In this document: positions 1-21,440 of the stretch, piece by piece
How positions within the stretch are numbered: position 1 is the stretch's first letter
Layout: every line of letters begins with the position of its first letter
From: an uncultured Pseudomonadales bacterium
GTDB taxonomy: Bacteria; Patescibacteriota; Microgenomatia; UBA1400; Chazhemtobacteraceae
Assembly (NCBI GenBank): GCA_964422035.1
Contig: CAYQZQ010000001.1
Span: 651,786 to 715,785 of the forward strand
DNA: 64,000 nucleotides
Reading direction: 5' to 3'
The notes under the pieces: model-generated
The model's input: only the letters and a program-made list of their open reading frames with translations
What the model was told of the DNA's origin: nothing
The model's database searches: none
Made by a program: the position numbers and the translations under genes

Positions 1-629
1 TGAGGGATGGGAAGATCAGAAGAGAAAGGGGTTTGCTGGCCTTGTTTTGAGGGTTGAGGAGAGGAGGAAGAAGGACTGGTTTGAGGAGAAGGGGGCTGTT
101 TTGGAGGTTCGGGTTGTTGTTTTTCTGGGGGAGTTGGTTCTGGGGCAGGAGTGGGAGGAGGGGTTTTAGGAGAGTGGCGTTTATTAGTTTTGGCTTTTGT
201 TTTCTTGGGAGCAGCCTTTTTTTGGGTGACTTGAAAGGAGGAAAGAGGAGGAGAGGTTGGTTGTGAGTCAGTTTTTTGTTTGGATTGATTTTTAGGTTTG
301 GAAGGGGCGGGAGAGGAGTCTTTGGGTTGCTGTGGTTGTTGTTTTTGCCAGGTGTAGATGGTGGGAGAGTAGATGGATTTGAAGAAAGCAATGATCCATT
401 GACTTAGGGGTCGACCTTGGACAGGAAGGAAGGCAAGGGCAGCGCCCAGGGAGGCGAAGAAAATTATAAGTGGCCATTTGAAAAGGGCAGGAATAGGAAG
501 GGAGAAGGCGATAACGGCAAGAATACCTCCAGCGGCCAGTTGAAGAAACTGCTTTAGAGTCATGTCGCCGATGAGGCGAAATTGATACTGTGTTACGTTT
601 TGAGGAATAGGATGCTGTTGGACGGGCAT
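1..629 (-). CDS. PrgI-family-like (VirB3-like) T4SS membrane protein, 5' part only (C-terminus beyond window start); N-terminus MPVQQHPIPQNVTQYQFRLIGDMTLKQFLQLAAGGILAVIAF... then Pro/Ser/Lys-rich tail
   Basis: Manual translation of the minus strand from ATG at 629 to position 1 has no stop. It is absent from the ORF track because no stop lies in the window. The N-terminal motif QY.F.LIG.MT.KQF plus two hydrophobic segments matches recalled PrgI-family proteins. The listed 54..266(+) and 292..477(-) ORFs are out-of-frame shadows of it. Confidence 0.5.
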   Translation of the reverse strand, partial: MPVQQHPIPQNVTQYQFRLIGDMTLKQFLQLAAGGILAVIAFSLPIPALFKWPLIIFFASLGAALAFLPVQGRPLSQWIIAFFKSIYSPTIYTWQKQQPQQPKDSSPAPSKPKNQSKQKTDSQPTSPPLSSFQVTQKKAAPKKTKAKTNKRHSPKTPPPTPAPEPTPPEKQQPEPPKQPPSPQTSPSSSSPQPSKQGQQTPFSSDLPIP

Positions 630-736: not shown

Positions 737-2965
737 ATGGCAGAAGGTGAACCAATTTCTGGGATCGGGCCAAGTAGTATAAGTCGTGGTCCTGGCCATA
801 AAATGGAGAAAATTTCTCAGCCAACCAGTCAGGCTGAAGTGCCTGATATTAGAATGCAAAGAGATGAAGAAGAGGAGGTTGTTAGTGGTCGGGAAAAGCT
901 TGACGAGGAAAGAGAGATGTGGGAAGAGTTTGAAGAGGGTTATGGGAATAGAAATGAGATGAGGATGCCGGTAGTAACAGTTGAATTGGAAAAACCTGCT
1001 GAGGAGTTTAGTGCAAAAAAGTTTAAAAGGGCAGTACAAAAGGAGTTTTCATCTTGGGTAGATGGCTTAATTGCTAAAACTGGATCGGGGATGTCTGACA
1101 GGCCGGATCATATTAGATTAGGAAGGATGATGGATAGTATGAAAAATGCAGTTGATAGTTTAGAGATAAGAAGAAGCTTGGCAGAAGAGGGAGAGAAGGA
1201 AGTAGTAAGAAAACAGGAAAGTTTTGAAGAGATAAAGAAGAGGTTAATGAAAGAAGAAAAATTTACAGAAGAAGATTTTGAAGAAATGGGGAGAGGAGAG
1301 ATATTAAAAGTAACAAGAGCGAAGAAAGAGATGAAAGAGATTGAGTTTGGTGATAAAGAAAAGGAAAAACTGGAAGCGATTGAGGAAGCCTTGGAGTGGT
1401 CGGGAGCTATGGATGAGTTTATGTGGGGAGTTTATACTCATTGGGGGAGTTTAGGATGGTCAAGAGAATACTGGGCCAATGTCATCATGAATAGAGACAA
1501 AAGAGTGGTTAGATTGAAAGAGTTGTCCAAAATCAGAGAGATAGGACCGGTTAAGGAGGGTGAAATGCCAGTTGAGGAGTATTGGGACAAGGCGCAAAGA
1601 ATGATTATTGCAACAGCTTTGGTATCGATGGAGGCTGGTGAATCGGAAAATGAGAATATCCAAAAAGATTATGAGGTGGTTCCAAAAGATGTGGTGAAGT
1701 TGATAGGAGATGTTTTGACTGAAGAAGTGTCAGATTACTCGATAGACGAAGATTCCGGTGAAGAATCTGTGAAAGCGACACGCACAGTATTGAATATATT
1801 AAATATTGATCCAAAAAGTGATTTATTTGGCAAGACAAGTAAATTTATAAAAGCTTGTAGCTGGGTTGATGCGTGGGGCAGACTGAAAGAAGGAGGTAAA
1901 TACGAAGAAGTTAAAAGCGAAGTTGGTGATTGGATGAGTAAGATGGAGAAGGCGGAGAAAAGCGGTGAAGTGTCTTTTGGTTTGGATTTTGCGTTTAAGT
2001 TAGCTTTGGCTGACATTCATTTTGCAGGAATTGATACTAAATATGGGTGGAGCATGAAAGAAGAGATGAAATTAAAGAAGGAAGAGGGTGGAGATTGGAA
2101 GGTAAAAATAGGTAAAGATTGGAAAAAAACTGGAGAAGTAAAAGAAGGAGAGCAATTGTTTAAGAAAAAATATGATATGGGAGGATGGCCACAAGGAAAT
2201 GATGCCAATTATTTGGTGTGGTCAGGAGCAAGATTGAAAGAGGATGGGGGTCGTGACTGGCCGATAGGGCCTAATGTTCTTATGAGTGAAGAGGATGTTG
2301 AAAGAGCGGATGATCCAAGGCTTGAGACTGTGTTTCCCAATGGAATGATTCCTAACTTTTATGAGAAAGTCAAGCTGATGGTGAAAGTGGGAGTAGAAAA
2401 TTTAGATGTAGAGGAGATGTCTGATCGAGTAAAATCTACACTGGAGAATATTGGGAACATTGGAGAAGAGAAAACTTTTTGGGAGTTGTGGTGGAGAGAA
2501 GAAAATAGACATTATCAATTACCTTGGACAGGAGAAAGTGAAAGAGAAATGAAGGTATTGAGGGTTCCAAGAGATAACGAGCATAGTAAATGGTATGTGA
2601 CCTTGTTAATGGCTAATAGAGTGTTTGAAGCAGCTATCAATGATGATGTTAGGGAATTTCAAGAGCTGGTGTCTGTTGATAAGATGAAAAAGTTGATTAA
2701 AAATGCTGATATTGCTTTTGGGGTTGGTTCTGATAAAGCAAAAAGAATGGTGGTGGGAGTTTTGGCAGCACAGTCTTTATTGTTTAGTGGTTTATCGGAC
2801 CAACTGATTAGTAAAGATCAGAGAGAACAGGCTGTTAAGATGAAGGCAAAAAGCGATATAGGAAATAAGATCAGGTACTTATTAGATGAGGGCAAGCGAA
2901 GAGGGAAGTGGAGTAGTTTATACAATCAAATTATTGAGGAGGGTAAGATTGTCTGGAGAGATTAA
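737..2965 (+). CDS. large acidic (Glu/Lys-rich) hypothetical protein, no TM segments
   Basis: Long uninterrupted ORF of 742 aa, divergent from the PrgI-like gene. No recognisable catalytic motif. Confidence 0.55.
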   Translation: MAEGEPISGIGPSSISRGPGHKMEKISQPTSQAEVPDIRMQRDEEEEVVSGREKLDEEREMWEEFEEGYGNRNEMRMPVVTVELEKPAEEFSAKKFKRAVQKEFSSWVDGLIAKTGSGMSDRPDHIRLGRMMDSMKNAVDSLEIRRSLAEEGEKEVVRKQESFEEIKKRLMKEEKFTEEDFEEMGRGEILKVTRAKKEMKEIEFGDKEKEKLEAIEEALEWSGAMDEFMWGVYTHWGSLGWSREYWANVIMNRDKRVVRLKELSKIREIGPVKEGEMPVEEYWDKAQRMIIATALVSMEAGESENENIQKDYEVVPKDVVKLIGDVLTEEVSDYSIDEDSGEESVKATRTVLNILNIDPKSDLFGKTSKFIKACSWVDAWGRLKEGGKYEEVKSEVGDWMSKMEKAEKSGEVSFGLDFAFKLALADIHFAGIDTKYGWSMKEEMKLKKEEGGDWKVKIGKDWKKTGEVKEGEQLFKKKYDMGGWPQGNDANYLVWSGARLKEDGGRDWPIGPNVLMSEEDVERADDPRLETVFPNGMIPNFYEKVKLMVKVGVENLDVEEMSDRVKSTLENIGNIGEEKTFWELWWREENRHYQLPWTGESEREMKVLRVPRDNEHSKWYVTLLMANRVFEAAINDDVREFQELVSVDKMKKLIKNADIAFGVGSDKAKRMVVGVLAAQSLLFSGLSDQLISKDQREQAVKMKAKSDIGNKIRYLLDEGKRRGKWSSLYNQIIEEGKIVWRD

Positions 2966-2986: not shown

Positions 2987-4684
2987 TTATGTGTTTGGTC
3001 TATTTCGACCTGTGGTGTTATCAATAAATTCATTGACAGTTGAGATGTTGGTTTCTTGACTTTGTATTTTTTTACCCATTTGTTTTATAAATTCTGGGGC
3101 ATTTGGATTTCTCATAACTGTGCCTAGTGAAGTTATTCCACGTCGAGTCATATCAAAGCTTGTTCCCAGTTCTCTTCCTAAATCAGAACCATATTTAAAT
3201 GGCTCTACTTGGAAGGCTTCCTTGATCATATCTACATATTTGGGAGCCATAAAGAGAAGTCCAAGACCTACTAGTGCTACCATGCCACTGGCACCAGCGC
3301 CTTGGTAGGGGAAAAGTACGGGAACACGAGGTGCGGCTGAAGCTTGCAGAAGCCCCTGTGTAATGTTTTCGTACTTAAAATAAAGAGGTTGAACCATGAA
3401 AAGATAGGAAAATAAGAGGAGAAATGATGTGGCTGGAAAAACAATAAGATTGGCAAAAGTGTTTCTTAGCCAGTTGCCGACTGAGTTGGAACCGGGAAAA
3501 ACGTTGCCAAGAAGGATAAGTGGGGCAAAGATCAGATTAATAATGACGGTTATATAGGCACCTATTAGTTTAAAGAATAGTTTTCCATAGGAAATTAATG
3601 TAGCGATTAGGAGAATGGCTCCGACTATTATAGTTGGGATACCACCAACGAAAATTATAGATAAGGCGTTTGCTACGCCCCAAAAGATGCCTGTAATACC
3701 TGCTGGGAGGCCGGTAATGGCTCCGATTGCACCTGGAATACCAGATACGAAGGCAATAAATGTGTTGAAAAATCCACTTAAAATAAGACCAGCCCGACCA
3801 GAAGCAACATTGGCAAGAATATTTCCATATTCAGCGACCGGTCCAGTTTGAATTACATTGAAAGTTTCGAGGGCGCTAAAGCCGAGGAAGAAAAGAAGCC
3901 AGACTAAATCAAACATAAGCCCGATTATGGCGTAAGAAAAGGTGATCAAAAATAGAGTGAATATTAGTTTAGGTAAAGCCTGTTGAATGTTGACTGATGT
4001 TTGAGGATTTATCTTGACGCGGAACATGATCATAAAACCATAAACGAGGAAAAGAAGAACAAAGATCATATAGGCAATATTTCGAAAAGCGCGCCAAATT
4101 GGCAAAAAGCCTTGTAAGCTGGAAAAACCGTATCCACCACTATTGTCCTCTTGAGCATATGAAGGTTGAACAATTTTATGTTTTGCCATGTTGTCTTTAA
4201 CGCTGGCGACGTATTGATAAGTTTGGGCGGGGGGGTTTTTGAAAGGAGAAGATACTAATTGACCTAAGCTGGAAAGGAGGCTGTTATTGGAAGTGGATTG
4301 GTTAACTGCTTGATTGGTGATGTCGATTGTTGCTAGAAGACTCAGAGGCTGGTTTTGCCCTTGTTTTTTTTCATTGAATTTTTTGAATAATTCATCAAAA
4401 ATTGCTTCTCCGGTTTTTTCTTGTTCGCCGATCATAAATTCTAAGGCGTGGAGAATGATGATGTCTCCGAAACCGGTGCCTTCGCCTGTGAATGTGTTGT
4501 TGGTCCCACATTTACCGGCATACCAAGTTTCAAGGTTCATGGTGTCTCCTTGTCTTTTTTCACAGAAATCGTAGAGAGCGTCGTTTAAGGCTTCATTATT
4601 CTTTGCAGCAGCGACAGGATGGGGGAGAAAGGCTGAGGATATGAAAATTAGAGTGGTAAAAAAGATAATGAATTTTTTGCTCAT
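2987..4684 (-). CDS. polytopic membrane protein with signal peptide, ~200 aa exported domain and Gly-rich TM bundle; VirB6/TrbL-like candidate
   Basis: Signal peptide MSKKFIIFFTTLIFISSAFLPHPVAAA, then at least 6 hydrophobic helices rich in G/A/I. The architecture and the pilus-gene neighbourhood support the call. Confidence 0.45.
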   Translation of the reverse strand: MSKKFIIFFTTLIFISSAFLPHPVAAAKNNEALNDALYDFCEKRQGDTMNLETWYAGKCGTNNTFTGEGTGFGDIIILHALEFMIGEQEKTGEAIFDELFKKFNEKKQGQNQPLSLLATIDITNQAVNQSTSNNSLLSSLGQLVSSPFKNPPAQTYQYVASVKDNMAKHKIVQPSYAQEDNSGGYGFSSLQGFLPIWRAFRNIAYMIFVLLFLVYGFMIMFRVKINPQTSVNIQQALPKLIFTLFLITFSYAIIGLMFDLVWLLFFLGFSALETFNVIQTGPVAEYGNILANVASGRAGLILSGFFNTFIAFVSGIPGAIGAITGLPAGITGIFWGVANALSIIFVGGIPTIIVGAILLIATLISYGKLFFKLIGAYITVIINLIFAPLILLGNVFPGSNSVGNWLRNTFANLIVFPATSFLLLFSYLFMVQPLYFKYENITQGLLQASAAPRVPVLFPYQGAGASGMVALVGLGLLFMAPKYVDMIKEAFQVEPFKYGSDLGRELGTSFDMTRRGITSLGTVMRNPNAPEFIKQMGKKIQSQETNISTVNEFIDNTTGRNRPNT

Positions 4685-4731
4685 TGATTTGATTATATCA
4701 ACCTGAGTTAGTAATGGAAACTTGGATTTTG

Positions 4732-7113
4732 TTAATTGCCGATGTAATTTAAGTTTTGGTCGTAGTTGTTGTTAAACCAGATGCCGTATTCACAGTAGTT
4801 TTGGTTTCCCAGGCGAGCGTAGCTGACGCCTTCCTTGCAGGCGGCGCTGTTAAAGCTTGTGATGGCGGCTCGCATAACAGCGTCACTGTAAGGTTTTTTT
4901 TGGCTGACATTTAGAGAAACCATTTTGGCTACGGCATAGGCGGAGTCAACCATGGAGCAGATATTGGTTTCTTGTGAAGAGTTGTGGCATTCATTGTAGG
5001 CGTTGCCGTAGTTGGCACCTCCTGACCAGATGTCTAGATTTTCAGCTGCAGGATTGGGGCATTTATTGGGGAGGAAGCAGTAGGGGTGTTCTGGGTCTCT
5101 TTGGTTTCTTTGAGAGACGGTCTCGCCAATTGAGCCGTCTTTGTTATGTAGGAACTGGAAAGGCCCCCAGGAGCCGCAGCCGTCTCCGGATGGAGCGCAA
5201 TAAGCTTCTGTTTGGCGGTCAAAGTTGTTGGAATATAAGTCGCCCACCTCAACGGTGGAGATGGCGGCGATTACTTTGGGTGAGATGCCAAAGCAGGCGG
5301 CAGCTTGTTGGAAAAGTTGCTTGGCTTGAGAGCTGAACTGGACAGGGTTTTGATAGACGTCTGCCCGAACTGAGAAAGGGGAAGTGTTTTTATATTGCGA
5401 ACAGGATTGGGCGACACCTTGAGAGCTGATGCGGGCATAAGGATCAGAGCAGTCTAAGGTTGAGTCTTGTTGACCGGATGGAATAAGCCACTGATTGCGA
5501 AGCTGGCATAGATCAACATGGGACTGACCGGCTTGTCTGGGGACAGGAGAGGAGTTGTCATTGGTGTTGGTGGTGGTGATGACGACTTCATCTTCTGAAT
5601 CAAAGAAAGAGATAGGAGCTTCGATGCGGGTGTCTTTCTGAGATGAAGGTGTGAAGCTGGGAGTAAATATTTGATAAAGAGAGGAGGAGTTTTGATTAAG
5701 AGAAGAAAGAGAGGTGTTGATGTTTGATTGGGCGGGGTTGTTGGCGATGACGATTGGTTTTCCGGTGACGGTTGCAAGACCTTTAATCTTCCAAGTGGAA
5801 GAGGTTCGTATGGCAATTGGAGTTGTAAGGGGAGTGAGGGTAGGTTTGATGTATCGATAGGAAATATGACGGGTAATTTGGACGGGAACGATGACTGTCT
5901 GGGAGAAAGAAGGGGCGAGGGCTAGGTGTTGAGGGTTGGTTAGAGGAGAGGGAAGATAGATGGCGTCAATGATGTTGTCACATTGGTTTCTATCAAATTC
6001 ACCTGAAGTGATCTGTTCTTGTAGTTGGGTAAGAAAACTGGGAATGGATTGTTGTTCTTGGGATTGGTTGATGAAGCGATCATTTGTAAGAGAGCCTTCC
6101 CGTTGGTTGTTGATCCATTGAGGAGAGTAGAGGTTGACTAGACCGGTTTGGGGGTTAGTTAAACCTTCATCTAAGGCAGCTAGGTAGGGTAGATTTTCGC
6201 CATAGACGGAAGAGATAAAGGAAAAGCTTTGGCTTAGTTGAGCTAAGTAGCCGCGGTAGTTGTCAAAGGGTAAAGGTAAGAGAGCATCGTAGGCAGCCTT
6301 GGTGTCAGGTTTGAGGGTGTTGTAGGCTTTGGTGTAATTGCAAAATCTTATCTCGATGTGTTTTTTGAAGAAGGGAATATTAAAGTCAATAGAGGGGTCA
6401 ACAACTAATAAACAACGAGATTGATTGGCTAGTTCTATGGCTAAACGTTTTATGTCTTTGGTTTGTTGATTGCCGTCTTTGTCAAAGTATTGGATTTGGT
6501 AGTTTTGATAGATCTCTTCTTCTCCACCAGGAAGTAAAGTTCTTATATCAGGATAGTCTTCGTTCTGGCGGATAAAGGCGGCTTTGGCTTTGGCTTGTTG
6601 CTGGAAGGTGGTAGTGCGCCAGTAGGTGCGATAGGCTTCTTTAGGGAGAGGTGAGTCGGTGGCAGGATAGTAGGTGTTGGGCTGGTCAAAAAGAGCTTGA
6701 AAAGGGTATATTTGGGCATTGCGGTCAGGAGAGGATTGATGAATGATTTGAGCGTTGGCTCCAAAACCACCTAGTTGGGCGCGGTCCATATTAGCGTAGA
6801 TTTCAGTGGTCAATTCACCGTTAGTTTGGTACTTGGTGCAATTGCCGTATTGGTCGGTTTCTACACAAGGCAGAGATGAGTAGGAGAGATTTAGGGGTTC
6901 TTTGTCACTTTCAAAGTTAACATTGACTTTGGGGCTGGAGGTACAGGTTAACTGATAATCATCGAGGTCTTGATGGATAAGATCGGTTTCGGTTTCGCAG
7001 TCTTCGGTGGGGCGGTAGGGATTTTGTCCGGCAGGACAAGGGGCAGCCAGAGTAGGAGAAGATAAAAGAAGGGTAAAAAAAAGTAGGGGTAGAATTTTAA
7101 GCAAACGCTTCAT
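4732..7113 (-). CDS. large secreted protein; C-terminal region lytic-transglycosylase-like (VirB1-like?)
   Basis: The likely start is the internal MKRLLKILPLLFFTLLLSSPTLAAP signal peptide at 7113, not 7338. The C-terminus carries AISTVE...GPFQF...GNAYNEC, resembling the SLT motifs ES / GLMQ / AYNAG. Confidence 0.45.
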   Translation of the reverse strand: MKRLLKILPLLFFTLLLSSPTLAAPCPAGQNPYRPTEDCETETDLIHQDLDDYQLTCTSSPKVNVNFESDKEPLNLSYSSLPCVETDQYGNCTKYQTNGELTTEIYANMDRAQLGGFGANAQIIHQSSPDRNAQIYPFQALFDQPNTYYPATDSPLPKEAYRTYWRTTTFQQQAKAKAAFIRQNEDYPDIRTLLPGGEEEIYQNYQIQYFDKDGNQQTKDIKRLAIELANQSRCLLVVDPSIDFNIPFFKKHIEIRFCNYTKAYNTLKPDTKAAYDALLPLPFDNYRGYLAQLSQSFSFISSVYGENLPYLAALDEGLTNPQTGLVNLYSPQWINNQREGSLTNDRFINQSQEQQSIPSFLTQLQEQITSGEFDRNQCDNIIDAIYLPSPLTNPQHLALAPSFSQTVIVPVQITRHISYRYIKPTLTPLTTPIAIRTSSTWKIKGLATVTGKPIVIANNPAQSNINTSLSSLNQNSSSLYQIFTPSFTPSSQKDTRIEAPISFFDSEDEVVITTTNTNDNSSPVPRQAGQSHVDLCQLRNQWLIPSGQQDSTLDCSDPYARISSQGVAQSCSQYKNTSPFSVRADVYQNPVQFSSQAKQLFQQAAACFGISPKVIAAISTVEVGDLYSNNFDRQTEAYCAPSGDGCGSWGPFQFLHNKDGSIGETVSQRNQRDPEHPYCFLPNKCPNPAAENLDIWSGGANYGNAYNECHNSSQETNICSMVDSAYAVAKMVSLNVSQKKPYSDAVMRAAITSFNSAACKEGVSYARLGNQNYCEYGIWFNNNYDQNLNYIGN

Positions 7114-7138: not shown

Positions 7139-7492
7139 TTATGGAGTGAGATTGATCTGGGTGACGGGAGCACCAGTGAACTGTTCGATAAGATAAAGGA
7201 CAAACCAAGCGAGAGCAAGACCGGCGATACCGATGATGGCGTAGGTGAGAGCTTTGTAAGCGCCTTGAACTTGTTTGGGGTCGTCGCCGGCCATGATAAG
7301 TCTGGCTCCGGCGAAGAGGATAACACCAAAGGCGACAAGAATGAGTAGGGGAGAAAGAATGCTGATGATGTTTAGAAGAACGCACTTGATGCCGGTGATG
7401 GTGGGAATGATTTCTCCGTCGACTTGTTGAGCGCATCCTTGATTAACCCACTGGTTGGCTTCAATTTTAGCGGCGTGTGCGGTTAGATTCAT
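7139..7492 (-). CDS. VirB2/TrbC-like pilin paralog 1 (two TM segments flanking a GDDPKQVQGAYKAL loop)
   Basis: About 110 aa, hydrophobic-loop-hydrophobic layout. The loop motif is related to paralogs 2-7. Confidence 0.6.
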   Translation of the reverse strand: MNLTAHAAKIEANQWVNQGCAQQVDGEIIPTITGIKCVLLNIISILSPLLILVAFGVILFAGARLIMAGDDPKQVQGAYKALTYAIIGIAGLALAWFVLYLIEQFTGAPVTQINLTP

Positions 7493-7515
7493 ATGTGTAA
7501 TTATAAACTAATAAC

Positions 7516-7550
7516 AAAAACCCTCTGGAGTAGAGGGTTTTTGCTTTATT
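7516..7550. terminator. bidirectional rho-independent terminator hairpin (AAAAACCCTCT-GGAGTA-AGAGGGTTTTT) flanked by T/A runs
   Basis: Perfect inverted repeat followed by a T-run on the plus strand and an A-run upstream. It lies between pilin paralogs 1 and 2. Confidence 0.6.
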
Positions 7551-7566
7551 TTTTGCTTTATGATGC

Positions 7567-7896
7567 TTATTTTAGGGAAGGAAGAGAAAGCTCGGAGATT
7601 GATTGACCGAAGAGGAAGGTGGTGATTAGGTTAATCAAAGCGTAAGCAGCAGCGATGACGATTAACCCAATGACTGCATTGGTAATTTTCTTTTGTGCTT
7701 CTTCAGTTTTGGCTTTATCGCCACCTGAAGTAATCCATTGAAAACCGCCCAGGATTAAAAAGATGAAAGCAGCTAGAGCACCGAGAACAATAGAGGCGTT
7801 AACCAAACCTTGAAGTAAGGTTCCGATATTGCTAATGGCGTAACTTGGTTCGGGGACTCCGACTGATTCGGCAAATGCTTTTTTGATTATTTGCAT
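7567..7896 (-). CDS. VirB2/TrbC-like pilin paralog 2
   Basis: Contains QWITSGGDKAKTEEAQKKITNAVIGLIVI between two hydrophobic helices. Confidence 0.65.
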   Translation of the reverse strand: MQIIKKAFAESVGVPEPSYAISNIGTLLQGLVNASIVLGALAAFIFLILGGFQWITSGGDKAKTEEAQKKITNAVIGLIVIAAAYALINLITTFLFGQSISELSLPSLK

Positions 7897-7957
7897 GTTG
7901 ATGTGTATTTAGTAATTGTTAATGAAATTATACTTAGCTTAAAAGATAACTGTCAAA

Positions 7958-8272
7958 TTAAGAAGTAGGTAGGGCTTGGTCTAGACCTAAGAAGTTTTTG
8001 ATAAGAACAAAAACTGCGTAAGAGGCGACGACGATGATAAGACCGGTTAAACCATTGGTAATTTGCTTTTGAGCTTGTTCAACTTTAGCTTTGTCTCCAC
8101 CTGAGGTAATCCACTGAAGGCCGCCTAAGATAAAGTAAATGAGGGCAGCCAGAGCGGCGATGATGATAAGGGCATTGATTAGGCTGCTGATTAGAGTACC
8201 TACGTCTTGAAAGGCGAAAAAGCCTTGAGTTTGGGTTTTAAGATTTGATTGCATATTAGAAGTTCCAGTCAA
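7958..8272 (-). CDS. VirB2/TrbC-like pilin paralog 3
   Basis: Contains LQWITSGGDKAKVEQAQKQITNGLTGLII. Confidence 0.65.
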   Translation of the reverse strand: MTGTSNMQSNLKTQTQGFFAFQDVGTLISSLINALIIIAALAALIYFILGGLQWITSGGDKAKVEQAQKQITNGLTGLIIVVASYAVFVLIKNFLGLDQALPTS

Positions 8273-8591
8273 TATTTAGTAAATCAATTTTTAAGAATTC
8301 ACTGATAAGGCTGACAATGGCAAAGGAGGCGACTAGAATGATAAGGCCGGTTAAAGCATTGGTAATTTGCTTTTGAGCTTGTTCAACTTTAGCCTTGTCT
8401 CCACCTGAAGTAATCCACTGGAGACCTCCTATAATAAAGTAGATTAGAAAGGCTAGGCCGCCGACGATGACTAGCGCTTTCCAGATTTGACCAATATAAA
8501 AGGCAAGGCCGGCTCCGGCCTGTGAGGGGGTAGTGAATTGGTTAAGGACAGGGTTTTTGATGGCGGCGTGTGTTTGGGGTACTATTTTCAT
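8256..8591 (-). CDS. VirB2/TrbC-like pilin paralog 4
   Basis: Contains LQWITSGGDKAKVEQAQKQITNALTGLII. Overlaps paralog 3 by 17 nt. Confidence 0.65.
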   Translation of the reverse strand: MKIVPQTHAAIKNPVLNQFTTPSQAGAGLAFYIGQIWKALVIVGGLAFLIYFIIGGLQWITSGGDKAKVEQAQKQITNALTGLIILVASFAIVSLISEFLKIDLLNIDWNF

Positions 8592-8941
8592 GAAAGGTCC
8601 AGTAATTTTAATGGTTCAAGGAGTTGAATGTCGAGAATGTTGCCGATGATGGCGATGGCAAAGTAGGCTACAAGGACGATGACAAGGCCGGTTAAACCAT
8701 TGGTAATCTGCTTTTGAGCTTGTTCAACTTTAGCTTTGTCTCCACCTGAGGTGATCCATTGAAGAGCTCCGATGAGGAAGTAGAGGATGAAGGCGAGTCC
8801 GGCGGTGACGGTAAGGAAACCTATTACTGTTGAAAATAAATTTTCAAAAAGGGCTGGGTCTTGAGGATCTTGCATGTATTTGCCGGGGCCGGTGATGTTA
8901 CCCAGGTCAATCTGGGCGTAGGCTTGGGGTATTATTTTCAT
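8588..8941 (-). CDS. VirB2/TrbC-like pilin paralog 5
   Basis: Contains LQWITSGGDKAKVEQAQKQITNGLTGLVI. ATGA overlap with paralog 4. Confidence 0.65.
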   Translation of the reverse strand: MKIIPQAYAQIDLGNITGPGKYMQDPQDPALFENLFSTVIGFLTVTAGLAFILYFLIGALQWITSGGDKAKVEQAQKQITNGLTGLVIVLVAYFAIAIIGNILDIQLLEPLKLLDLS

Positions 8942-8943
8942 GA

Positions 8944-9297
8944 TTAGTTAACGGTTTGTAATTGAGGGCTTAGGATGTAGGTGTAGCTGCCGAAAAGAAG
9001 TTTGCTGATTATGGCGGTGACGATAAAGACAGCTACCATGACAAGTAAACCAATGAGAGCATTGGTGATTTGTTGTTGGGCGGAGCGGACTTTGTCCTGA
9101 TCGCCAGCGGCGGTGATGATAGAGAAACCTCCTAAAAGCATTTGGATTAAAGCAAAGAGACCGGCGGCTACAAAGATAACTCTAATTAAAGTTGAGAGAA
9201 AGCTGCCAAGGTCGCTGGTTTCAGTAACGACTGAAGGAGGAGGGGTGAGTTTGCCGACAACATCTTTGGCATAAGTTTTTGAGATTAGACTTAACAT
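8944..9297 (-). CDS. VirB2/TrbC-like pilin paralog 6 (divergent loop AAGDQDKVRSAQQQITNALIGL)
   Basis: Same two-TM architecture. Confidence 0.6.
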   Translation of the reverse strand: MLSLISKTYAKDVVGKLTPPPSVVTETSDLGSFLSTLIRVIFVAAGLFALIQMLLGGFSIITAAGDQDKVRSAQQQITNALIGLLVMVAVFIVTAIISKLLFGSYTYILSPQLQTVN

Positions 9298-9298
9298 A

Positions 9299-9634
9299 TT
9301 AAAAGATTGGCAAACCGCCGACGTTAAATAATATTCGAGTTATCCAGAAAGCGATAACTGCCAGGGCTAGCCCTAGTAAGGAAAATAGTAACATATTAGA
9401 AGCTTTTTGTGTTTCTTTGGGGTTGCCCCCAGCGATTATGTAACGGAAACCGGCTATAAGAGAGGAGATGAAAGCAGCAAGACCGGCTACAATGGTGATG
9501 TTTTGAATAATGGGGCTTAAGATACTGGAAAAAGTTGGGTTACTACCTAAAGATTTGCTGGGAGTAAAGGCGTCACCTAGATCAGTGGCAGCGTAAACTA
9601 GCGGTGCGGTCAAAAGTTTGCCTGTGAGTTTCAT
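9299..9634 (-). CDS. VirB2/TrbC-like pilin paralog 7 (loop AGGNPKETQKASNML)
   Basis: Same two-TM architecture. It is the first gene of the minus-strand array. Confidence 0.6.
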   Translation of the reverse strand: MKLTGKLLTAPLVYAATDLGDAFTPSKSLGSNPTFSSILSPIIQNITIVAGLAAFISSLIAGFRYIIAGGNPKETQKASNMLLFSLLGLALAVIAFWITRILFNVGGLPIF

Positions 9635-9670: not shown

Positions 9671-10741
9671 ATGAAGGCTATAAATAAGCTACAGAATTTT
9701 AAGATAAGGTTTGACAAGATCTTGCAAGAAGAGATCTTGGAGTGGAGGAGAGAGGCGGTGAGGTTAGATGAGCGGTGGGAGCTATTTATGAAAGTACTGG
9801 AAGAGTTTGTAGTTAGGGGCGGGAAAAGGATAAGGCCGGCGTTTTTATACTATTCATATTTGGCTTGTGGAGGAGAAGAGGCGGAGAAAGCAATGAGAGC
9901 AGGGGTAAGTCTGGAGCTTTTGCATGCGTTTTTGTTGATTCACGATGATATGATAGATAATTCTGATTTAAGACGAGGGGGTCCGACTGTTCACAAGGTT
10001 TTTGAGGAGGAGCACAAGAAAATGTCTTTGGAAGGAAATAGTGAGGAGTTTGGTAGATCAACGGCAATGATTTTAGGAGACGTGGTGCAGATGCTAGCAA
10101 GAAAACAGTTGCGCAAGGTGGACTTGAGGGAAGATATGTATAGAGAAAGCGAGAAAATAATGGAAGATCTTTTATGGGAGACGGCGTATGGTTGGTATAT
10201 TGAGATGTTGAATGCAAAAACCAGAGTGATTGAAGAGAAAGATGTTAAAAGATCGATGGAGTATGTTTCAGCTAGATATACAGTGTCAGGGCCGGTGAAG
10301 ATGGGAGCGATGTTGGCAGAAGCTGAAGTAGGAAAAATTAAGGCACTGGAGGAGTATGGACTGAATTTGGGTTTGGCTTTTCAGATTCAGGATGATGTTT
10401 TGGGGATGTTTGGAGATGAAGCAAAGGTGGGCAAGCCGGTGGAAAGTGATTTGAAAGAGGGAAAAAAGACGCTTTTGATTTTAAGAACACTTGACAAGCT
10501 TGAAGATGAAGAAACTAAGAATAAGCTGATGAGTATATATGGAAACAGTGAGGCAACAAGGCAGGATTTGGTTTGGGTGAGAGATTTAATAAAGAGTGAA
10601 GGTGTTTTGGAGGAGGTAAAAGGGGAGGCAAGAGGGTTGGCTGAGAAAGCGAAAAAGGAGTTAAAAAGCTTAGATTGGGATGAGAAAGGAGAGGGGTTTC
10701 TATTGGGTATAGCTTCATATATAGTAGAAAGACAAGTATGA
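9671..10741 (+). CDS. trans-isoprenyl diphosphate (polyprenyl) synthase
   Basis: FARM motif LIHDDMIDNSDLRRG and SARM motif FQIQDDVLG...GK. Confidence 0.85.
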   Translation: MKAINKLQNFKIRFDKILQEEILEWRREAVRLDERWELFMKVLEEFVVRGGKRIRPAFLYYSYLACGGEEAEKAMRAGVSLELLHAFLLIHDDMIDNSDLRRGGPTVHKVFEEEHKKMSLEGNSEEFGRSTAMILGDVVQMLARKQLRKVDLREDMYRESEKIMEDLLWETAYGWYIEMLNAKTRVIEEKDVKRSMEYVSARYTVSGPVKMGAMLAEAEVGKIKALEEYGLNLGLAFQIQDDVLGMFGDEAKVGKPVESDLKEGKKTLLILRTLDKLEDEETKNKLMSIYGNSEATRQDLVWVRDLIKSEGVLEEVKGEARGLAEKAKKELKSLDWDEKGEGFLLGIASYIVERQV

Positions 10742-11247
10742 GAAAAGTTCAAGTAGTAAATAACCAAGGGGAGACGATTGGAGAAGAGGAGAAGCTGGCA
10801 GCACACAAGAAGGGTTTATTGCACAGAGCGTTTTCAGTCTTTGTTTTTAATAGTGATGGAGAGTTGATGTTACAACAAAGAGCCAGTGGTAAATATCACT
10901 CAGGAGGTTTGTGGAGTAATACATGTTGCTCTCATCCGGAGCCGGGAGAAGAAGTGTTGGAGGCGGCGCATAGGAGAATTCAAGAAGAGATGGGGTTTGA
11001 TTGTGAGATGGAAGAGAAGTTTACATTTCAATACAGAGTGGAGTTTGAGAATGGGTTAGTGGAAAATGAGTATGATCATGTGATTTTTGGAGAGTATGAT
11101 GGAGAACCTGATCCTAGTGAAGAAGAGGCAGATGATTGGAAGTGGGAGAGTTTGGAAAAAATTAGAGAGGAAGTGGAGGAGAAACCAGAGAAGTTTAGTT
11201 TTTGGTTTAAGGGTTTGTTATCTGAGGTTATTGAAAAGAGAAGTTAA
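10738..11247 (+). CDS. idi: isopentenyl-diphosphate delta-isomerase, type 1 (Nudix)
   Basis: LHRAFSVFVFN...WSNTCCSHP...GE...ENEYDHV matches recalled E. coli Idi active-site regions. Confidence 0.85.
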   Translation: MRKVQVVNNQGETIGEEEKLAAHKKGLLHRAFSVFVFNSDGELMLQQRASGKYHSGGLWSNTCCSHPEPGEEVLEAAHRRIQEEMGFDCEMEEKFTFQYRVEFENGLVENEYDHVIFGEYDGEPDPSEEEADDWKWESLEKIREEVEEKPEKFSFWFKGLLSEVIEKRS

Positions 11248-11963
11248 GAGGTTTTGTTTTTTGAGTCTCCTCCAAAACGGCGATCGCGTGAAGTGTAGCT
11301 TTGGAGAGCTTTGTTGAATTGGTTGGTGTCAAAGTCAGGGAAGAGAGTATCGGTAAAGTAGAGCTCTGAATAAACTGCTTGCCAGGGCAAGAAGCCGGAA
11401 AGGCGAACTTCACCTCCGGTGCGGATGATTAGGTCAGGGTCAGGCAGGTCAGCAGTATCAAGCATGGAGGAGAAAAGCTCTTCGGTGACTTCTTTGGCCT
11501 GGTAACCTTTTTTGATGATTTTTTTGACAGCTCGAAGTATTTCGTCACGGCCGCCGTAGTTTAGAGCAAAGGAAACAGTAATTTGATCATTGTCTTTGGA
11601 TTTTTGAATCAGTTTTTGAACTTTTTGGGCGATGTCTTGAGGGAAGCGGTCTACTTGACCAAGAACATTTAGTCTAGCACCTTTTTTAATGAATCTATCA
11701 GCTAAAGTTTTTAAGCCCTTGCGGAAGATTGAGAAAAGAGCCTGAATTTCATCCTTGTCTCTTTTCCAGTTTTCGGTTGAGAAAGCCCAGAAGGTGACGT
11801 AGGGGATATTAAGTTGGGCACAGCGCTCAATGATGGGTTCGATTACATTCATGGCAGCGTGGTCGTGACCTTCGACGGGTTCTTTGTCTTGGTTTTTAGC
11901 CCAGCGACGATTGCCGTCCATGATGATAGCAACGTGTTGAGGGGTTTTTAGGCTTTTTTCCAT
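11244..11963 (-). CDS. uppS: undecaprenyl-diphosphate synthase (cis-prenyltransferase)
   Basis: HVAIIMDGNRRWA motif, plus RTGGEVRLSGFLPWQ near the C-terminus. Confidence 0.85.
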   Translation of the reverse strand: MEKSLKTPQHVAIIMDGNRRWAKNQDKEPVEGHDHAAMNVIEPIIERCAQLNIPYVTFWAFSTENWKRDKDEIQALFSIFRKGLKTLADRFIKKGARLNVLGQVDRFPQDIAQKVQKLIQKSKDNDQITVSFALNYGGRDEILRAVKKIIKKGYQAKEVTEELFSSMLDTADLPDPDLIIRTGGEVRLSGFLPWQAVYSELYFTDTLFPDFDTNQFNKALQSYTSRDRRFGGDSKNKTS

Positions 11964-12023
11964 AGAACTGATTATAACAATTATGTGTTTGCGTTAATTA
12001 TGCGTTAATTATGCGGGAATTAT

Positions 12024-12353
12024 TTAAAATGGAAGAATTGAAGAATCGTAGTTTAGCATAGAAGTGATAATTTTAACAATTAAAAATGAGGCTAAGACAA
12101 TAACAAGTCCGATAAAACCATTTAGGAGGCGGGTGTTGGTTTTGCTGAGAGACTCCGGGTCATCGCCGCCGAATATGTAGCCAAAAGAAGTGATGATTAG
12201 ATTAATAAAGAAGATAAAAGCGATGATGAAGAAAGCAACATCTAAAAGGTTGAAGCCGCCGGAGGTGATTAATTGGGTAATAGTGGGGTTGTTGGAGGAG
12301 AACTTAGTAGCGGGGTTGTAGAGGTTTGATATGTCTACTTGAGCTAGTTGCAT
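12024..12353 (-). CDS. VirB2/TrbC-like pilin paralog 8 (loop GGDDPESLSKTNTRLLNGFIGL)
   Basis: Two TM segments plus a GGDDP loop, as in paralog 1. Confidence 0.55.
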   Translation of the reverse strand: MQLAQVDISNLYNPATKFSSNNPTITQLITSGGFNLLDVAFFIIAFIFFINLIITSFGYIFGGDDPESLSKTNTRLLNGFIGLVIVLASFLIVKIITSMLNYDSSILPF

Positions 12354-12357
12354 GGGT

Positions 12358-12903: not shown

Positions 12904-12942
12904 TGGTTAAATTTTACCAGAGAAGTAGGTACAATATAAACC

Positions 12943-18715: not shown

Positions 18716-18721
18716 AGAAAA

Positions 18722-18746
18722 CCTCGATCTTTGATCGGGGTTTTTT
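18722..18746 (+). terminator. rho-independent terminator after tmRNA (CCTCGATC-TTT-GATCGGGG + T6)
   Basis: 8-bp stem, 3-nt loop, T-run. Confidence 0.6.
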
Positions 18747-18766
18747 GTTTGGGGTAAAGTTAAGTT

Positions 18767-21432: not shown

Positions 21433-21440
21433 CAATTTTT

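What the first reader, a model, noticed from the sequence alone, without database searches (positions are those of the whole stretch)
2987..7113. VirB6-like polytopic membrane protein plus 793-aa secreted protein with lytic-transglycosylase-like C-terminus
The gene pair lies immediately downstream (same strand) of the pilin array. The 565-aa protein has a signal peptide, an exported domain and a Gly-rich multi-helix bundle, as in VirB6/TrbL. The next protein ends with ...AISTVE...GPFQF...AYNEC..., which resembles the SLT catalytic Glu, GLMQ and AYNAG motifs. That would make it a VirB1-like cell-wall-opening enzyme. With PrgI-like and VirB2-like genes, this forms a recognisable T4SS core, minus ATPases, in the window.
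Basis: partly seen in the sequence, partly recalled or inferred. Interest (0 to 1): 0.6.

Follow-up and report, generated by a model that had tools for sequence, protein, structure and literature searches.

The report
Patescibacterial T4SS VirB6 and lysin-like partner
These two genes belong to the known type IV secretion system of ultrasmall (CPR/Patescibacteria) bacteria: one is a highly diverged version of the VirB6 membrane-channel protein, which a 2025 survey rarely detected in this class, and the other is a secreted protein with an unmatched 530-residue domain and a probable, unproven lysozyme-like end.

Summary
Both ORFs are real and lie where stated: 565 aa (2987-4684, -) and 793 aa (4732-7113, -), directly downstream of seven PF18895 pilin genes.

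**Context.** Just beyond the window's left end the same genome encodes PrgI/VirB3, TraC-like/TrsD, a VirB4 ATPase, an M23 peptidase and dnaN. This is the published Patescibacteria MPF_FATA-like T4SS. The order recurs in 27-40 of 41 related genomes.

**565-aa protein.** It has no Pfam, NCBIfam or PDB sequence hit. Three results still point to VirB6:
- Its AlphaFold model's best PDB matches are R388 TrwI/VirB6 chains (probability up to 0.99, but E 0.016-0.03 and low TM-scores).
- A family profile aligns 96 columns with VirB6 profiles, above 100 of 100 shuffles. Invariant P388, P397 and W405 fall on TrwI P181, P191 and W199.
- It is the only protein in the cluster with six or more membrane helices.

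I call it a divergent VirB6.

**793-aa protein.** It is secreted. Its conserved 530-aa N-domain has no fold match. The SLT-like C-terminus is only weakly supported:
- Invariant E622 aligns with the catalytic Glu of EmtA, above 200 of 200 shuffles.
- Phage-protein fold hits to GEWL-like and SLT proteins are weak.
- A paralogous tail at the same position is a genuine PF18896 lysozyme-like domain.

Verdict: partly supported, a new variant of a known system.

The parts
1..629 (-). 5' part (first 209 codons, start at 629) of a PrgI-like (VirB3-like) gene that runs off the left end of the window
   Evidence: The translation is identical to the start of the 301-aa PrgI (PF12666) gene in the same genome (L003). 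It has a hydrophobic hairpin at residues 27-72.
737..2965 (+). 742-aa Glu/Lys-rich protein with no signal peptide or membrane helix, divergently oriented between the PrgI-like and VirB6-like genes. Whether it belongs to the system is uncertain.
   Evidence: No Pfam or NCBIfam hit. No hydrophobic segment; 14% Glu and 10.6% Lys. No similarity to the opposite-strand genes at the same position in Collierbacteria, and no tblastn hit in 80 related loci.
2987..4684 (-). Divergent VirB6/TrbL-like polytopic membrane protein, 565 aa
   Evidence: Best PDB fold matches are TrwI/VirB6 chains (chain identity confirmed). hhalign against a VirB6 profile beats 100 of 100 shuffles. It is the only protein in the cluster with six or more hydrophobic helices. 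Its position between the pilins and PrgI/TrsD/VirB4 is conserved.
4100..4606 (-). Exported N-terminal domain of the VirB6-like protein (residues 27-195), with the conserved NLETWY motif at residues 50-55 and conserved C41 and C59
   Evidence: Invariant columns are listed. pLDDT is only 50-70. This ectodomain type co-occurs with the 793-aa family: 32 of 32 loci with the motif versus 2 of 33 without it.
3227..3556 (-). Region (residues 377-486) that aligns with TrwI/VirB6 residues 170-266, including invariant P388, P397 and W405
   Evidence: hhalign score 28.1, P=0.012. None of 100 column shuffles reach it (maximum 22.9); the reversed alignment scores 18.3.
4732..7113 (-). Secreted 793-aa, Cys-rich, two-part protein encoded directly upstream of the VirB6-like gene
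   Evidence: Signal sequence only. The family gene lies immediately upstream on the same strand in 39 of 80 related loci. AlphaFold model: mean pLDDT 78.7.
5446..7038 (-). Conserved N-terminal domain (residues 26-556), mixed alpha/beta, with conserved cysteines; function unknown
   Evidence: This is the part conserved across the family. pLDDT is mostly 85-97. No significant fold match in PDB or BFVD. No Pfam hit in any of the 10 members scanned.
4735..5436 (-). C-terminal all-helical domain (residues 560-793), putatively lysozyme/SLT-like. Candidate catalytic E622 is the codon at 5248-5250; GPFQF is at 5152-5166; SFNSAAC is at 4837-4857.
   Evidence: Weak EmtA, MltB and SLT_2 hits fall on the Glu helix. 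hhalign against six SLT domains gives P=0.0021 and beats 200 of 200 shuffles. BFVD gives weak GEWL-like and SLT hits over about 210 columns. The motifs are invariant in the five homologues. E622 sits at the C-terminal end of helix 612-623.
7139..9634 (-). Array of seven VirB2-like T4SS pilin genes (7139-7492, 7567-7896, 7958-8272, 8256-8591, 8588-8941, 8944-9297, 9299-9634)
   Evidence: PF18895 T4SS_pilin matched all four genes scanned, with E from 3.5e-11 to 3.6e-5. The translations show a shared two-helix pattern and a ...GG.QWITSGGD.AK... motif. Pilins lie upstream in 40 of 41 related loci.

Best explanation
The window holds the distal half of the chromosomal, origin-proximal type IV secretion system found in Patescibacteria (CPR). 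This one is probably from the class Microgenomatia.

**Gene order, read along the minus strand**
- seven VirB2-like pilins
- a secreted 793-aa protein
- a 565-aa VirB6-like protein
- one opposite-strand gene
- then PrgI/VirB3; beyond the window's left end, TrsD/TraC-like, VirB4 and an M23 peptidase

**The 565-aa protein**
- It is the system's VirB6: a polytopic inner-membrane subunit on which the pilus or stalk is assembled and through which substrate passes.
- Its sequence has diverged beyond what standard HMMs detect.
- It carries an extra exported N-terminal domain of about 170 aa.

**The 793-aa protein**
- It is exported by Sec.
- Its conserved 530-aa N-terminal domain probably docks it to the machine, most plausibly to the VirB6 ectodomain or the pilus.
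- Its C-terminal module of about 210 aa is a diverged lysozyme/SLT-superfamily domain that would cut peptidoglycan, using E622 as the acid catalyst.

**Shown:** gene reality, topology, synteny, weak but specific fold and profile similarity to VirB6, and motif-level similarity to SLT.

**Inferred:** channel function, docking, muralytic activity, and whose cell wall is cut.
For: **Context**
- The same genome continues with PrgI (PF12666), TraC-like (PF26593), VirB4-like (DUF87/AAA_10/P-loop_TraG), Peptidase_M23 and dnaN.
- Collierbacteria show the same synteny.
- In 41 genomes with at least 8 kb on each side, pilins are present in 40, PrgI in 34, TraC-like in 31 and VirB4 in 27, all on the same strand at consistent offsets.
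- This matches the published Patescibacteria T4SS (PMC12102498, PMC10633639, PMC12857230).

**VirB6**
- 9 of the top 13 Foldseek PDB hits are TrwI/VirB6 chains. The best are 8rtd_L (E 0.016, probability 0.97) and 7o3v_F (E 0.034, probability 0.99). One search confirms these chains are TrwI.
- Legionella DotA ranks fifth.
- A 123-sequence family profile against 8 MPF_T VirB6 sequences gives 96 aligned columns and a score of 28.1. None of 100 column shuffles reach it, and the invariant Pro, Pro and Trp coincide.
- One divergent family member hits PF04610 TrbL at E=5.5e-4.
- It has about seven hydrophobic helices, and no other protein in the cluster has more than about four.

**793-aa protein**
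- Its gene sits directly upstream of the VirB6-like gene in 39 of 80 loci.
- It co-occurs with the NLETWY-type VirB6 ectodomain: 32 of 32 loci versus 2 of 33.

**C-terminal domain**
- The best PDB sequence hit is MltE, aligned at its catalytic Glu.
- NCBIfam MltB and EmtA hit the same helix at E about 0.1.
- hhalign against SLT domains gives P=0.0021, and none of 200 shuffles reach the score.
- BFVD gives GEWL-like and SLT-domain hits over about 210 columns at probability 0.2.
- Tails at the same position in paralogues fall into at least eight sequence clusters. One is a PF18896 SLT_3 domain above its family threshold (E 5.4e-8). Another hits PF01464 at E 0.064. Several carry E-S...G-[LP]-[MF]-Q motifs.
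Against: **VirB6**
- No Pfam, NCBIfam or PDB sequence hit for the 565-aa protein or for 43 close relatives.
- The Foldseek E-values are not significant on their own, and the TM-scores are low (0.20-0.24 normalised to the query, 0.34-0.42 to the target).
- The single TrwI sequence against the family profile is at chance level.
- The hhalign probability is only 3.6%.

**793-aa C-terminus**
- PF01464 gives no hit.
- Foldseek against PDB finds no lysozyme or SLT among the 50 matches listed.
- The BFVD matches have E about 2.
- The hhalign match covers only 34 columns at 13% probability.
- The query-type tail is not detectably related to the commoner 'ESGASNY' tail (P=0.28).
- Model confidence is low for residues 638-693, between the candidate motifs.

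No experimental data exist for either protein.
Confidence: 0.68

Rival explanations
1. The 793-aa protein is a non-enzymatic surface or pilus-associated factor, either an adhesin or a functional analogue of the VirB5 tip/stalk protein. On this reading its C-terminal domain is a Cys-rich binding module, or a catalytically dead remnant of a lysozyme-like domain, rather than an active wall-cutting enzyme.
For: - The conserved part of the family is the N-terminal domain, while the tail varies.
- The gene sits immediately before the VirB6-like gene, as virB5 does in MPF_T operons such as R388 and the IncN plasmids.
- It co-varies with the VirB6 ectodomain.
- No SLT family HMM reaches its threshold, and there is no PDB fold hit.
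- The residue after E622 is Val or Ala, not the Ser usual in SLT domains.
Against: - No fold similarity to VirB5/TraC appears among the listed PDB matches.
- E622 and GSWGPFQ are invariant in the five homologues.
- The Glu helix aligns with catalytic SLT helices above all 200 shuffles.
- One paralogous tail is a genuine PF18896 lysozyme-like domain.
Confidence: 0.22
2. One reading: the 793-aa protein is the system's VirB1. It locally opens the producer's own cell wall so that the T4SS and pilus can assemble.
For: - It is encoded in the T4SS cluster.
- It is secreted.
- Its tail has SLT-like motifs.
- PMC12102498 notes that VirB1 homologues are mostly undetected near virB4 in Patescibacteria and that other glycosidases may fill that role.
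Against: - Another candidate for that role exists: a membrane-anchored 836-aa M23 peptidase directly downstream of VirB4. The equivalent genes are essential in Southlakia epibionticum (PMC12102498).
- Known monoderm VirB1s such as PrgK and TraG combine an SLT domain with a CHAP-type amidase/peptidase domain (PMC12102498). This protein has a signal sequence as its only hydrophobic segment and a large unrelated N-domain.
- Rapid swapping of the tail among close relatives fits a variable external target better than the producer's own wall.
Confidence: 0.25
3. The 565-aa protein is an unrelated membrane protein, such as a permease or a pilin-processing or export factor, that merely lies in the cluster. 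On this reading the VirB6 resemblance reflects generic helical-bundle similarity.
For: - No family HMM hit.
- Low TM-scores and non-significant Foldseek E-values.
- Nramp, MATE and other transporters also appear lower in the hit list.
Against: - The top matches are specifically VirB6 chains, with probability up to 0.99, while the transporters score 0.11 or less.
- The profile alignment falls on the conserved VirB6 GP...P...W region and exceeds every shuffle.
- One relative has a sub-threshold PF04610 hit.
- The position within the T4SS cluster is strictly conserved.
- No other candidate VirB6 exists in the cluster.
Confidence: 0.07

Closest known systems
TrwI (R388) / VirB6 (Agrobacterium), Pfam PF04610 TrbL/VirB6
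   Same: - Polytopic inner-membrane protein encoded in a T4SS cluster.
- Best structural match for the model.
- 96 columns align across the conserved GP...P...W region: P388, P397 and W405 against TrwI P181, P191 and W199.
- Preceded by a gene for a secreted protein, as virB5 precedes virB6 in R388.
   Different: - No HMM-level membership.
- 565 aa against 342 aa.
- It has a cleavable-looking signal sequence and an extra conserved exported domain of about 170 aa.
- It belongs to a monoderm-type (MPF_FATA-like) system with no outer-membrane core complex (PMC12102498).
The T4SS of Patescibacteria (Southlakia epibionticum SEML1_0006-0019; survey in PMC12102498)
   Same: - VirB4, TrsD and PrgI plus an array of divergent VirB2-like pilins, chromosomal and next to dnaN.
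- No relaxase or coupling protein was found among the large ORFs of this window that I scanned.
   Different: - PMC12102498 reports that VirB6 homologues are scarce in Microgenomatia and attributes this to extreme divergence. The 565-aa family fills that position in at least 594 species genomes, and the named ones are Collier-, Woese-, Roizman-, Beckwith- and Shapirobacteria.
- I found no description of the 793-aa family in the passages of the papers that I searched.
Family 1 lytic transglycosylases (E. coli EmtA/MltE, Slt70; Pfam PF01464) and T4SS VirB1 proteins (for example the R388 lytic transglycosylase)
   Same: - Helix-loop-helix with Glu at the end of the second helix...GISPKVIAAISTVE aligned with ...GVDPQLITAIIAIE.
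- A downstream G-x-x-Q (GPFQ against GLMQ) and a conserved [FW]-N-[SP]-[AG] that hhalign places on AYNxG.
- Encoded in a T4SS cluster.
   Different: - No HMM reaches its threshold.
- Val or Ala follows the Glu, not Ser.
- The Glu-to-GxxQ spacing is 28 residues and contains a Cys-rich insert.
- It is fused behind a 530-aa domain with no fold match.
Monoderm VirB1-type hydrolases PrgK (pCF10) and TraG (pIP501)
   Same: Large multidomain wall hydrolases dedicated to a Gram-positive-type T4SS (PMC12102498).
   Different: - Those combine SLT and CHAP-type amidase/peptidase domains (PMC12102498).
- This protein has only a signal sequence, an unrelated N-domain and a single diverged lysozyme-like tail.
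- The M23 protein beside VirB4 resembles the PrgK type more closely.

Membership tests
TrbL/VirB6 (PF04610) | Sequence match to the family HMM at or above the gathering score | tested here: not met
   No hit for the 565-aa protein at E<=1. None of 43 close relatives hit. One divergent relative (L076) reaches 20.2 bits, E 5.5e-4, against a cutoff of 25.9.
TrbL/VirB6 (PF04610) | Polytopic membrane protein with five or more hydrophobic helices | tested here: met
   Hydropathy scan: about seven segments between residues 196 and 487. The AlphaFold model shows long helices with pLDDT 85-96 in this region.
TrbL/VirB6 (PF04610) | Conserved core region with the Gly-Pro ... Pro ... Trp signature following a membrane helix | tested here: met
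   hhalign of 123 family sequences against 8 VirB6 sequences: residues 377-486 align with TrwI 170-266, score 28.1, P 0.012. None of 100 shuffles reach it. P388, P397 and W405 fall on TrwI P181, P191 and W199. The hhalign probability is only 3.6%, so this is support, not proof.
TrbL/VirB6 (PF04610) | Fold similarity to a solved VirB6 (TrwI in 7O3V/8RTD) | tested here: inconclusive
TrbL/VirB6 (PF04610) | Encoded with VirB4 and VirB3 in one T4SS cluster | tested here: met
TrbL/VirB6 (PF04610) | Forms the stalk base or inner-membrane platform and is required for transfer | not testable with these tools
   This needs genetics or cryo-EM/cryo-ET.
SLT / GH23 lytic transglycosylase (PF01464 and relatives) | Match to an SLT-clan HMM at the gathering score | tested here: not met
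   No PF01464 hit. NCBIfam MltB and EmtA reach E about 0.1 at residues 581-624. A close homologue's tail hits SLT_2 at E 0.14.
SLT / GH23 lytic transglycosylase (PF01464 and relatives) | Catalytic Glu at the C-terminal end of a helix (motif I, usually E-S) | tested here: inconclusive
   E622 is invariant in 5 of 5 homologues and in the 10-member family alignment. It lies at the end of helix 612-623. It aligns with EmtA E64 at a score above 200 of 200 shuffles. The next residue is Val or Ala, not Ser.
SLT / GH23 lytic transglycosylase (PF01464 and relatives) | Motif II G-L-M-Q and motif III A-Y-N-x-G downstream in that order | tested here: inconclusive
GSWGPFQ (residues 647-653) is invariant. 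[SH][FW]N[SP][AG]AC at residues 753-759 is conserved. An extended hhalign alignment places the two on GLMQ and on EmtA's Y-A-N-G (consensus AYNxG), but with near-zero column confidence.
SLT / GH23 lytic transglycosylase (PF01464 and relatives) | Lysozyme-like fold | tested here: inconclusive
SLT / GH23 lytic transglycosylase (PF01464 and relatives) | Cleaves peptidoglycan glycan strands | not testable with these tools
   This needs enzyme assays.
VirB1-type T4SS wall hydrolase | Recognisable peptidoglycan-hydrolase domain in a protein of the T4SS cluster, either small and periplasmic (diderm type) or combining SLT with a CHAP-type amidase/peptidase domain (monoderm type) | tested here: not met
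   Cluster location is met. The architecture differs: a signal peptide, then a 530-aa domain with no fold match, then one diverged tail, with no CHAP or M23 domain. The neighbouring M23 protein fits the monoderm type better.
Patescibacteria MPF_FATA-like T4SS | VirB4 with TrsD and PrgI, plus an array of PF18895 pilins, chromosomal and near the replication genes | tested here: met
   compared with PMC12102498.
VirB5/TraC pilus-tip protein (considered for the 793-aa N-domain) | Fold similarity to VirB5/TraC (for example 1R8I, or TrwJ in 7O3V) | tested here: not met
   No VirB5, TraC or TrwJ chain appears among the 50 listed Foldseek PDB matches.

The most novel reading that the evidence does not exclude
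The 793-aa family may be a previously undescribed T4SS accessory.

- Its conserved N-domain, which has no fold match in PDB or BFVD, would play the role VirB5 plays in diderm systems: sitting on the VirB6 ectodomain or at the pilus tip.
- From there it would present interchangeable muralytic modules that breach the cell wall of the host bacterium on which the epibiont lives.
- The tail type would track host wall chemistry.

That would make this pair the host-penetration device of the Microgenomatia T4SS.
Probability: 0.15. Interest if true: 0.75.

Novelty: new variant of a known kind. Interest (0 to 1): 0.5.

Why it matters
The Patescibacteria T4SS is essential for epibiotic growth in the one species tested genetically, Southlakia epibionticum (PMC10633639). 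What it transports, and how, is unknown.

A 2025 survey found VirB6 scarce in Microgenomatia, one of the best-represented classes in its dataset, and attributed this to extreme divergence (PMC12102498). The 565-aa family supplies a concrete candidate present in at least 594 species genomes. It also gives conserved residues to mutate: P388, P397 and W405.

The partner protein points to a possible link between the secretion machine and cell-wall degradation. Its swappable lysozyme-like tail co-varies in presence with the VirB6 ectodomain. The idea can be tested with an E622 mutant, muropeptide assays and co-folding.

The system itself is already known, so this fills in parts of it rather than revealing a new principle.

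Tried and rejected
**Searches that found nothing**
- Pfam and NCBIfam on both proteins gave nothing usable.
- Profile searches of the PDB sequence set with A1, A2 and A3 gave no relevant hits. A3 matched only designed repeat proteins, which I treat as spurious.
- Pfam on all 10 members of A2 and on 10 proteins that match only the C-terminal region of the A2 profile (the 'ESGASNY' type) gave nothing.
- The R388 lytic transglycosylase against PDB sequences gave no hit, so it could not be used to harvest SLT sequences.

**Comparisons at chance level**
- hhalign of the 565-aa family against the single TrwI sequence: 15 of 100 shuffles scored as high.
- hhalign of the query-type tail against the 'ESGASNY' tail: P 0.28. 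I do not claim these two tails are homologous.
- The 'ESGASNY' tail against SLT domains: P 0.014, suggestive only.

**Fold searches**
- Foldseek of the full 793-aa model against PDB returned only chance-level matches such as Cascade and ribosomal proteins.

**Other checks**
- A search for the query-type tail elsewhere found only two more proteins.
- I looked for T4SS ATPases inside the window and found none among the large ORFs. VirB4 lies just outside the window.
- An attempt to name the source organism by cluster look-up returned no name.
- I rejected the idea that the 742-aa opposite-strand gene is a conserved T4SS part, because it has no similarity in syntenic loci.

Full report
**1. What is in the sequence**

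The two ORFs are as described.
- 2987-4684 (-) encodes 565 aa.
- 4732-7113 (-) encodes 793 aa from the ATG at 7113.

Upstream on the same strand lie seven small genes at 7139-9634. All four that I scanned match PF18895 T4SS_pilin, with E from 3.5e-11 to 3.6e-5; three pass the family threshold and one falls just below it.

Each protein has an identical copy in the public collection, on a 725-kb contig. The 565-aa protein has 498 homologues. The 793-aa protein has 10 by word-seeded search and 348 by exhaustive profile search. They are genuine genes.

Hydropathy and the AlphaFold models give the topologies.
- The 565-aa protein has a Sec-type N-terminus, an exported domain of about 170 aa, about seven helices between residues 196 and 487 (9% Gly overall), and a 78-aa charged tail.
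- The 793-aa protein has only a signal sequence, and 2.5% of its residues are Cys, many of them conserved.

**2. Genomic setting**

An assembly of the same genome extends past the window's left end (L003). After the opposite-strand 742-aa gene come, in order:
- PrgI (PF12666), whose first 209 codons are window 3-629 (-)
- a TraC-like protein (PF26593)
- a 635-aa VirB4-type ATPase (DUF87/AAA_10/P-loop_TraG)
- an 836-aa Peptidase_M23 protein with three hydrophobic stretches, probably three or four membrane helices
- a 352-aa protein
- dnaN

The same order occurs in Candidatus Collierbacteria, including the flanking SpoIID, UppS and polyprenyl-synthase genes.

A scan of one genome per species found at least 594 genomes with a relative of the 565-aa protein. 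The informatively named ones are Collier-, Woese-, Roizman-, Beckwith- and Shapirobacteria, all Microgenomatia.

In the 41 loci with at least 8 kb on each side, tblastn found the following, all co-oriented and at consistent offsets:

| Component | Loci (of 41) |
|---|---|
| Pilins, upstream | 40 |
| PrgI, downstream | 34 |
| TraC-like, downstream | 31 |
| VirB4, downstream | 27 |

This is the T4SS described for Patescibacteria. It resembles monoderm MPF_FATA systems, carries an added VirB2-like pilin array, usually lacks a relaxase and lies near the replication origin (PMC12102498). It is essential for epibiotic growth of Southlakia epibionticum (PMC10633639, PMC12857230).

I found no ATPase among the window's large ORFs, and VirB4 lies just outside.

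**3. The 565-aa protein**

Sequence-library tests are negative.
- No Pfam or NCBIfam family for it.
- No TrbL hit in any of 43 close relatives.
- No PDB sequence hit with the family profile.

Structure and profile comparisons nevertheless point to VirB6.
- The AlphaFold model has mean pLDDT 71.5, rising to 85-96 in the helical bundle.
- Searched with Foldseek against PDB, 9 of its top 13 matches are chains of TrwI, the VirB6 of plasmid R388. The best are 8rtd_L (E 0.016, probability 0.97) and 7o3v_F (E 0.034, probability 0.99). DotA of the Legionella system ranks fifth. Transporters lower in the list have probability 0.11 or less.
- I confirmed that 7o3v_F is TrwI and 7o3v_A is TrwJ/VirB5.
- These E-values and TM-scores (0.2-0.4) are weak, so I ran an independent test.

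For that test I collected seven further MPF_T VirB6 proteins from plasmids. I compared their alignment with a 123-sequence alignment of the CPR family.
- hhalign aligns 96 columns, residues 377-486 against TrwI 170-266.
- The score is 28.1 with P 0.012. None of 100 column-shuffled controls reach it (maximum 22.9), and the reversed alignment scores 18.3.
- The family's invariant P388, P397 and W405 fall on P181, P191 and W199 of TrwI, which the consensus line marks as conserved in the VirB6 set.
- One divergent member of the family reaches PF04610 TrbL/VirB6 at E 5.5e-4, below the family threshold.
- The comparison against the single TrwI sequence was at chance level.

It is also the only protein with six or more membrane helices in the cluster.

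I conclude that it is a strongly diverged VirB6 with an extra exported N-terminal domain. My confidence is about 0.8. It is not a demonstrable member of the Pfam family.

This matters because PMC12102498 reports that VirB6 homologues are scarce in Microgenomatia and attributes this to extreme divergence.

**4. The 793-aa protein**

*The N-terminal domain*
- The family alignment shows a well-conserved N-terminal part of about 530 aa, with conserved Cys, and a variable tail of about 180-270 aa.
- The AlphaFold model has mean pLDDT 78.7. The N-domain is mostly 85-97 and mixed alpha/beta. The C-domain is all-helical, with confident helices at 595-623 and 700-790 and a poorly modelled stretch at 638-693.
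- The N-domain has no significant fold match in PDB or BFVD, and no Pfam hit in any of the 10 members scanned.

*The C-terminal claim: negative results*
- PF01464 does not hit.
- The full-length model finds no lysozyme or SLT among the 50 listed PDB matches.

*The C-terminal claim: positive results, each weak*
- NCBIfam MltB and EmtA both hit residues 581-624 at E about 0.1.
- The best PDB sequence hit of the isolated domain is MltE/EmtA (E 1.4). It aligns ...GISPKVIAAISTVE with ...GVDPQLITAIIAIE, which places E622 on Glu64, the Glu of the ES motif, the catalytic residue of SLT-type enzymes.
- I built an alignment of six SLT domains: E. coli EmtA, Slt70, MltC, MltD and MltF, plus the R388 transglycosylase. 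Against the five proteins that share this tail, hhalign gives 34 columns, score 27.1 and P 0.0021. None of 200 column shuffles reach it (maximum 21.9), and the reversed alignment scores 18.3.
- In BFVD, the only named matches spanning about 210 columns are a GEWL-like protein (probability 0.20) and an SLT-domain protein (probability 0.21), both at E about 2.
- E622 and GSWGPFQ are invariant in the five homologues. AYNEC is not conserved, but [SH][FW]N[SP][AG]AC at residues 753-759 is. The extended alignment puts it on AYNxG at low confidence.
- E622 sits at the end of helix 612-623, the position of the catalytic Glu in lysozyme-like folds. That last point is established knowledge rather than something tested here.

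*Comparative argument*

Ninety-five family members have a tail of at least 100 aa after the conserved core. These tails fall into at least eight sequence clusters.
- One cluster is a PF18896 SLT_3 "lysozyme like domain" above its threshold (33.6 bits, E 5.4e-8).
- Another hits PF01464 at E 0.064.
- A close homologue of the query tail hits SLT_2 at E 0.14, on the Glu helix.
- Several clusters show E-S...G-[LP]-[MF]-Q patterns by eye.

The slot therefore holds interchangeable modules, at least one of which is a genuine lysozyme-like domain. I put the probability that the query tail belongs to the lysozyme/SLT superfamily at about 0.6. Catalytic activity is untested.

**5. How the two relate**
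- The 793-aa family gene lies immediately upstream of the VirB6-like gene, on the same strand, in 39 of 80 loci.
- Among the 65 loci with at least 4 kb upstream, it is present in 32 of 32 whose VirB6-like protein has the NLETWY-type ectodomain, and in only 2 of 33 without it. This count is not corrected for phylogeny.
- In most of the remaining loci, a different large Cys-rich protein occupies the same slot.
- A gene for a secreted protein directly before virB6 recalls virB5-virB6 in R388 and the IncN plasmids. The two products contact each other in the R388 stalk, as the titles of entries 7O3V and 8RT9 state.

From this I infer, without having shown it, that the N-domain docks on the VirB6 ectodomain or the pilus.

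Whether the tail cuts the producer's own wall (a VirB1-like role) or the host's wall is open. Two points lean towards an external target: the M23 protein beside VirB4 and the rapid swapping of tails.

**6. Verdict**
The T4SS context and the VirB6-like assignment hold. The SLT-like tail is plausible at superfamily level but fails family membership. "VirB1-like" is an over-reading of a protein whose main domain has no known relative.
- The system is already known. The new content is a candidate for the VirB6 that was rarely detected in Microgenomatia, and an undescribed modular secreted partner.

**7. Limits**
- Structure jobs were capped, so the C-terminal domain was never modelled or searched on its own.
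- hhalign P-values come from small profiles. The column-shuffle controls preserve composition but not helical periodicity; the reversed-alignment controls address this only in part.

Noticed in passing
window 1-64000 (exceptions at about 32000-38000 and 46000-48000): The strand composition bias is extreme. Plus-strand GC skew is +0.3 to +0.65 in 2-kb windows (G 17857 against C 8186 overall). At four-fold degenerate sites the coding-strand skew is +0.72 in plus-strand genes and -0.72 in minus-strand genes, so the bias is mutational and not driven by coding. It also shapes protein composition: plus-strand genes are rich in Glu, Lys and Gly. The MacB/HlyD transporter block at 32-38 kb and the gene at 46023-47912 lack the skew, which may reflect recent insertion or inversion.
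   Followed up: partly
window 5446-7038 (N-domain of the 793-aa protein): In the Foldseek search of viral structures, at least 15 of the top 50 matches are maturation (A) proteins of ssRNA phages, including phage PRR1. These proteins bind pili. The alignments span 400-500 columns but have probability 0.04 or less and RMSD of about 25-35 A, so this is probably an effect of database redundancy.
   Followed up: no
L023, L035, L011, L010, P0185, P0168 and others (tails of 793-family members): The C-terminal 180-270 aa of this family fall into at least eight unrelated-looking sequence clusters behind one conserved N-domain. One cluster is PF18896 SLT_3 above its threshold. The most widely distributed type outside this family (...CYNDVV..AGVxPAF.LAIWLxESGASNY..DFG...) also occurs as the end of many other proteins of 200-1900 aa and has no Pfam family.
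   Followed up: partly
L051, L056, L071 and about 14 more loci, directly upstream of the VirB6-like gene; also an insert of about 280 aa in P0125-P0128: Where the 793-aa family is absent, a different family of 650-1600-aa Cys-rich proteins occupies the slot. The one I read begins with a signal-like N-terminus. Its N-terminal region carries motifs that resemble clan GH-A glycosidases (...FNEPNN... and ...ITEAGL...). P0125-P0128 have a similar insert (...GNELNS... and ...LTEYGL...). Only one weak Pfam hit supports this: Glyco_hydro_cc, E 0.017.
   Followed up: partly
window 2987-4684 together with 4732-7113, compared across loci L010-L089: The NLETWY-type ectodomain of the VirB6-like protein and the 793-aa family are almost perfectly linked in their presence: 32 of 32 loci against 2 of 33 (Fisher P 1.6e-16, not corrected for phylogeny).
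   Followed up: partly
window 737-2965 (+): A 742-aa Glu/Lys-rich ORF with no signal peptide lies between the VirB6-like and PrgI-like genes on the opposite strand. It has no Pfam or NCBIfam hit and no detectable relative at the same position in 80 related loci, where other unrelated large genes sit.
   Followed up: partly
L003 11129-13639 (same genome, outside the window): An 836-aa Peptidase_M23 protein with three hydrophobic stretches in its middle (residues 540-655), probably three or four membrane helices, lies directly downstream of VirB4. It is another candidate for the wall-remodelling (VirB1-type) role in this T4SS.
   Followed up: no
window 18318-21696 and 26117-26189: A tmRNA gene (18318-18715) is followed by four tRNA-Ser genes with different anticodons (tga, gct, cga, gga) and a tRNA-Arg, all on the plus strand and interspersed with short ORFs. 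A tRNA-Asn lies at 26117.
   Followed up: no
window 9671-14727: Isoprenoid and wall genes (polyprenyl synthase, IPP isomerase-like, UppS-like by sequence, and a SpoIID-domain protein) flank the pilin array. The polyprenyl synthase, UppS and SpoIID genes keep the same neighbourhood in Collierbacteria, so the T4SS cluster is embedded in a conserved chromosomal block next to dnaN.
   Followed up: no
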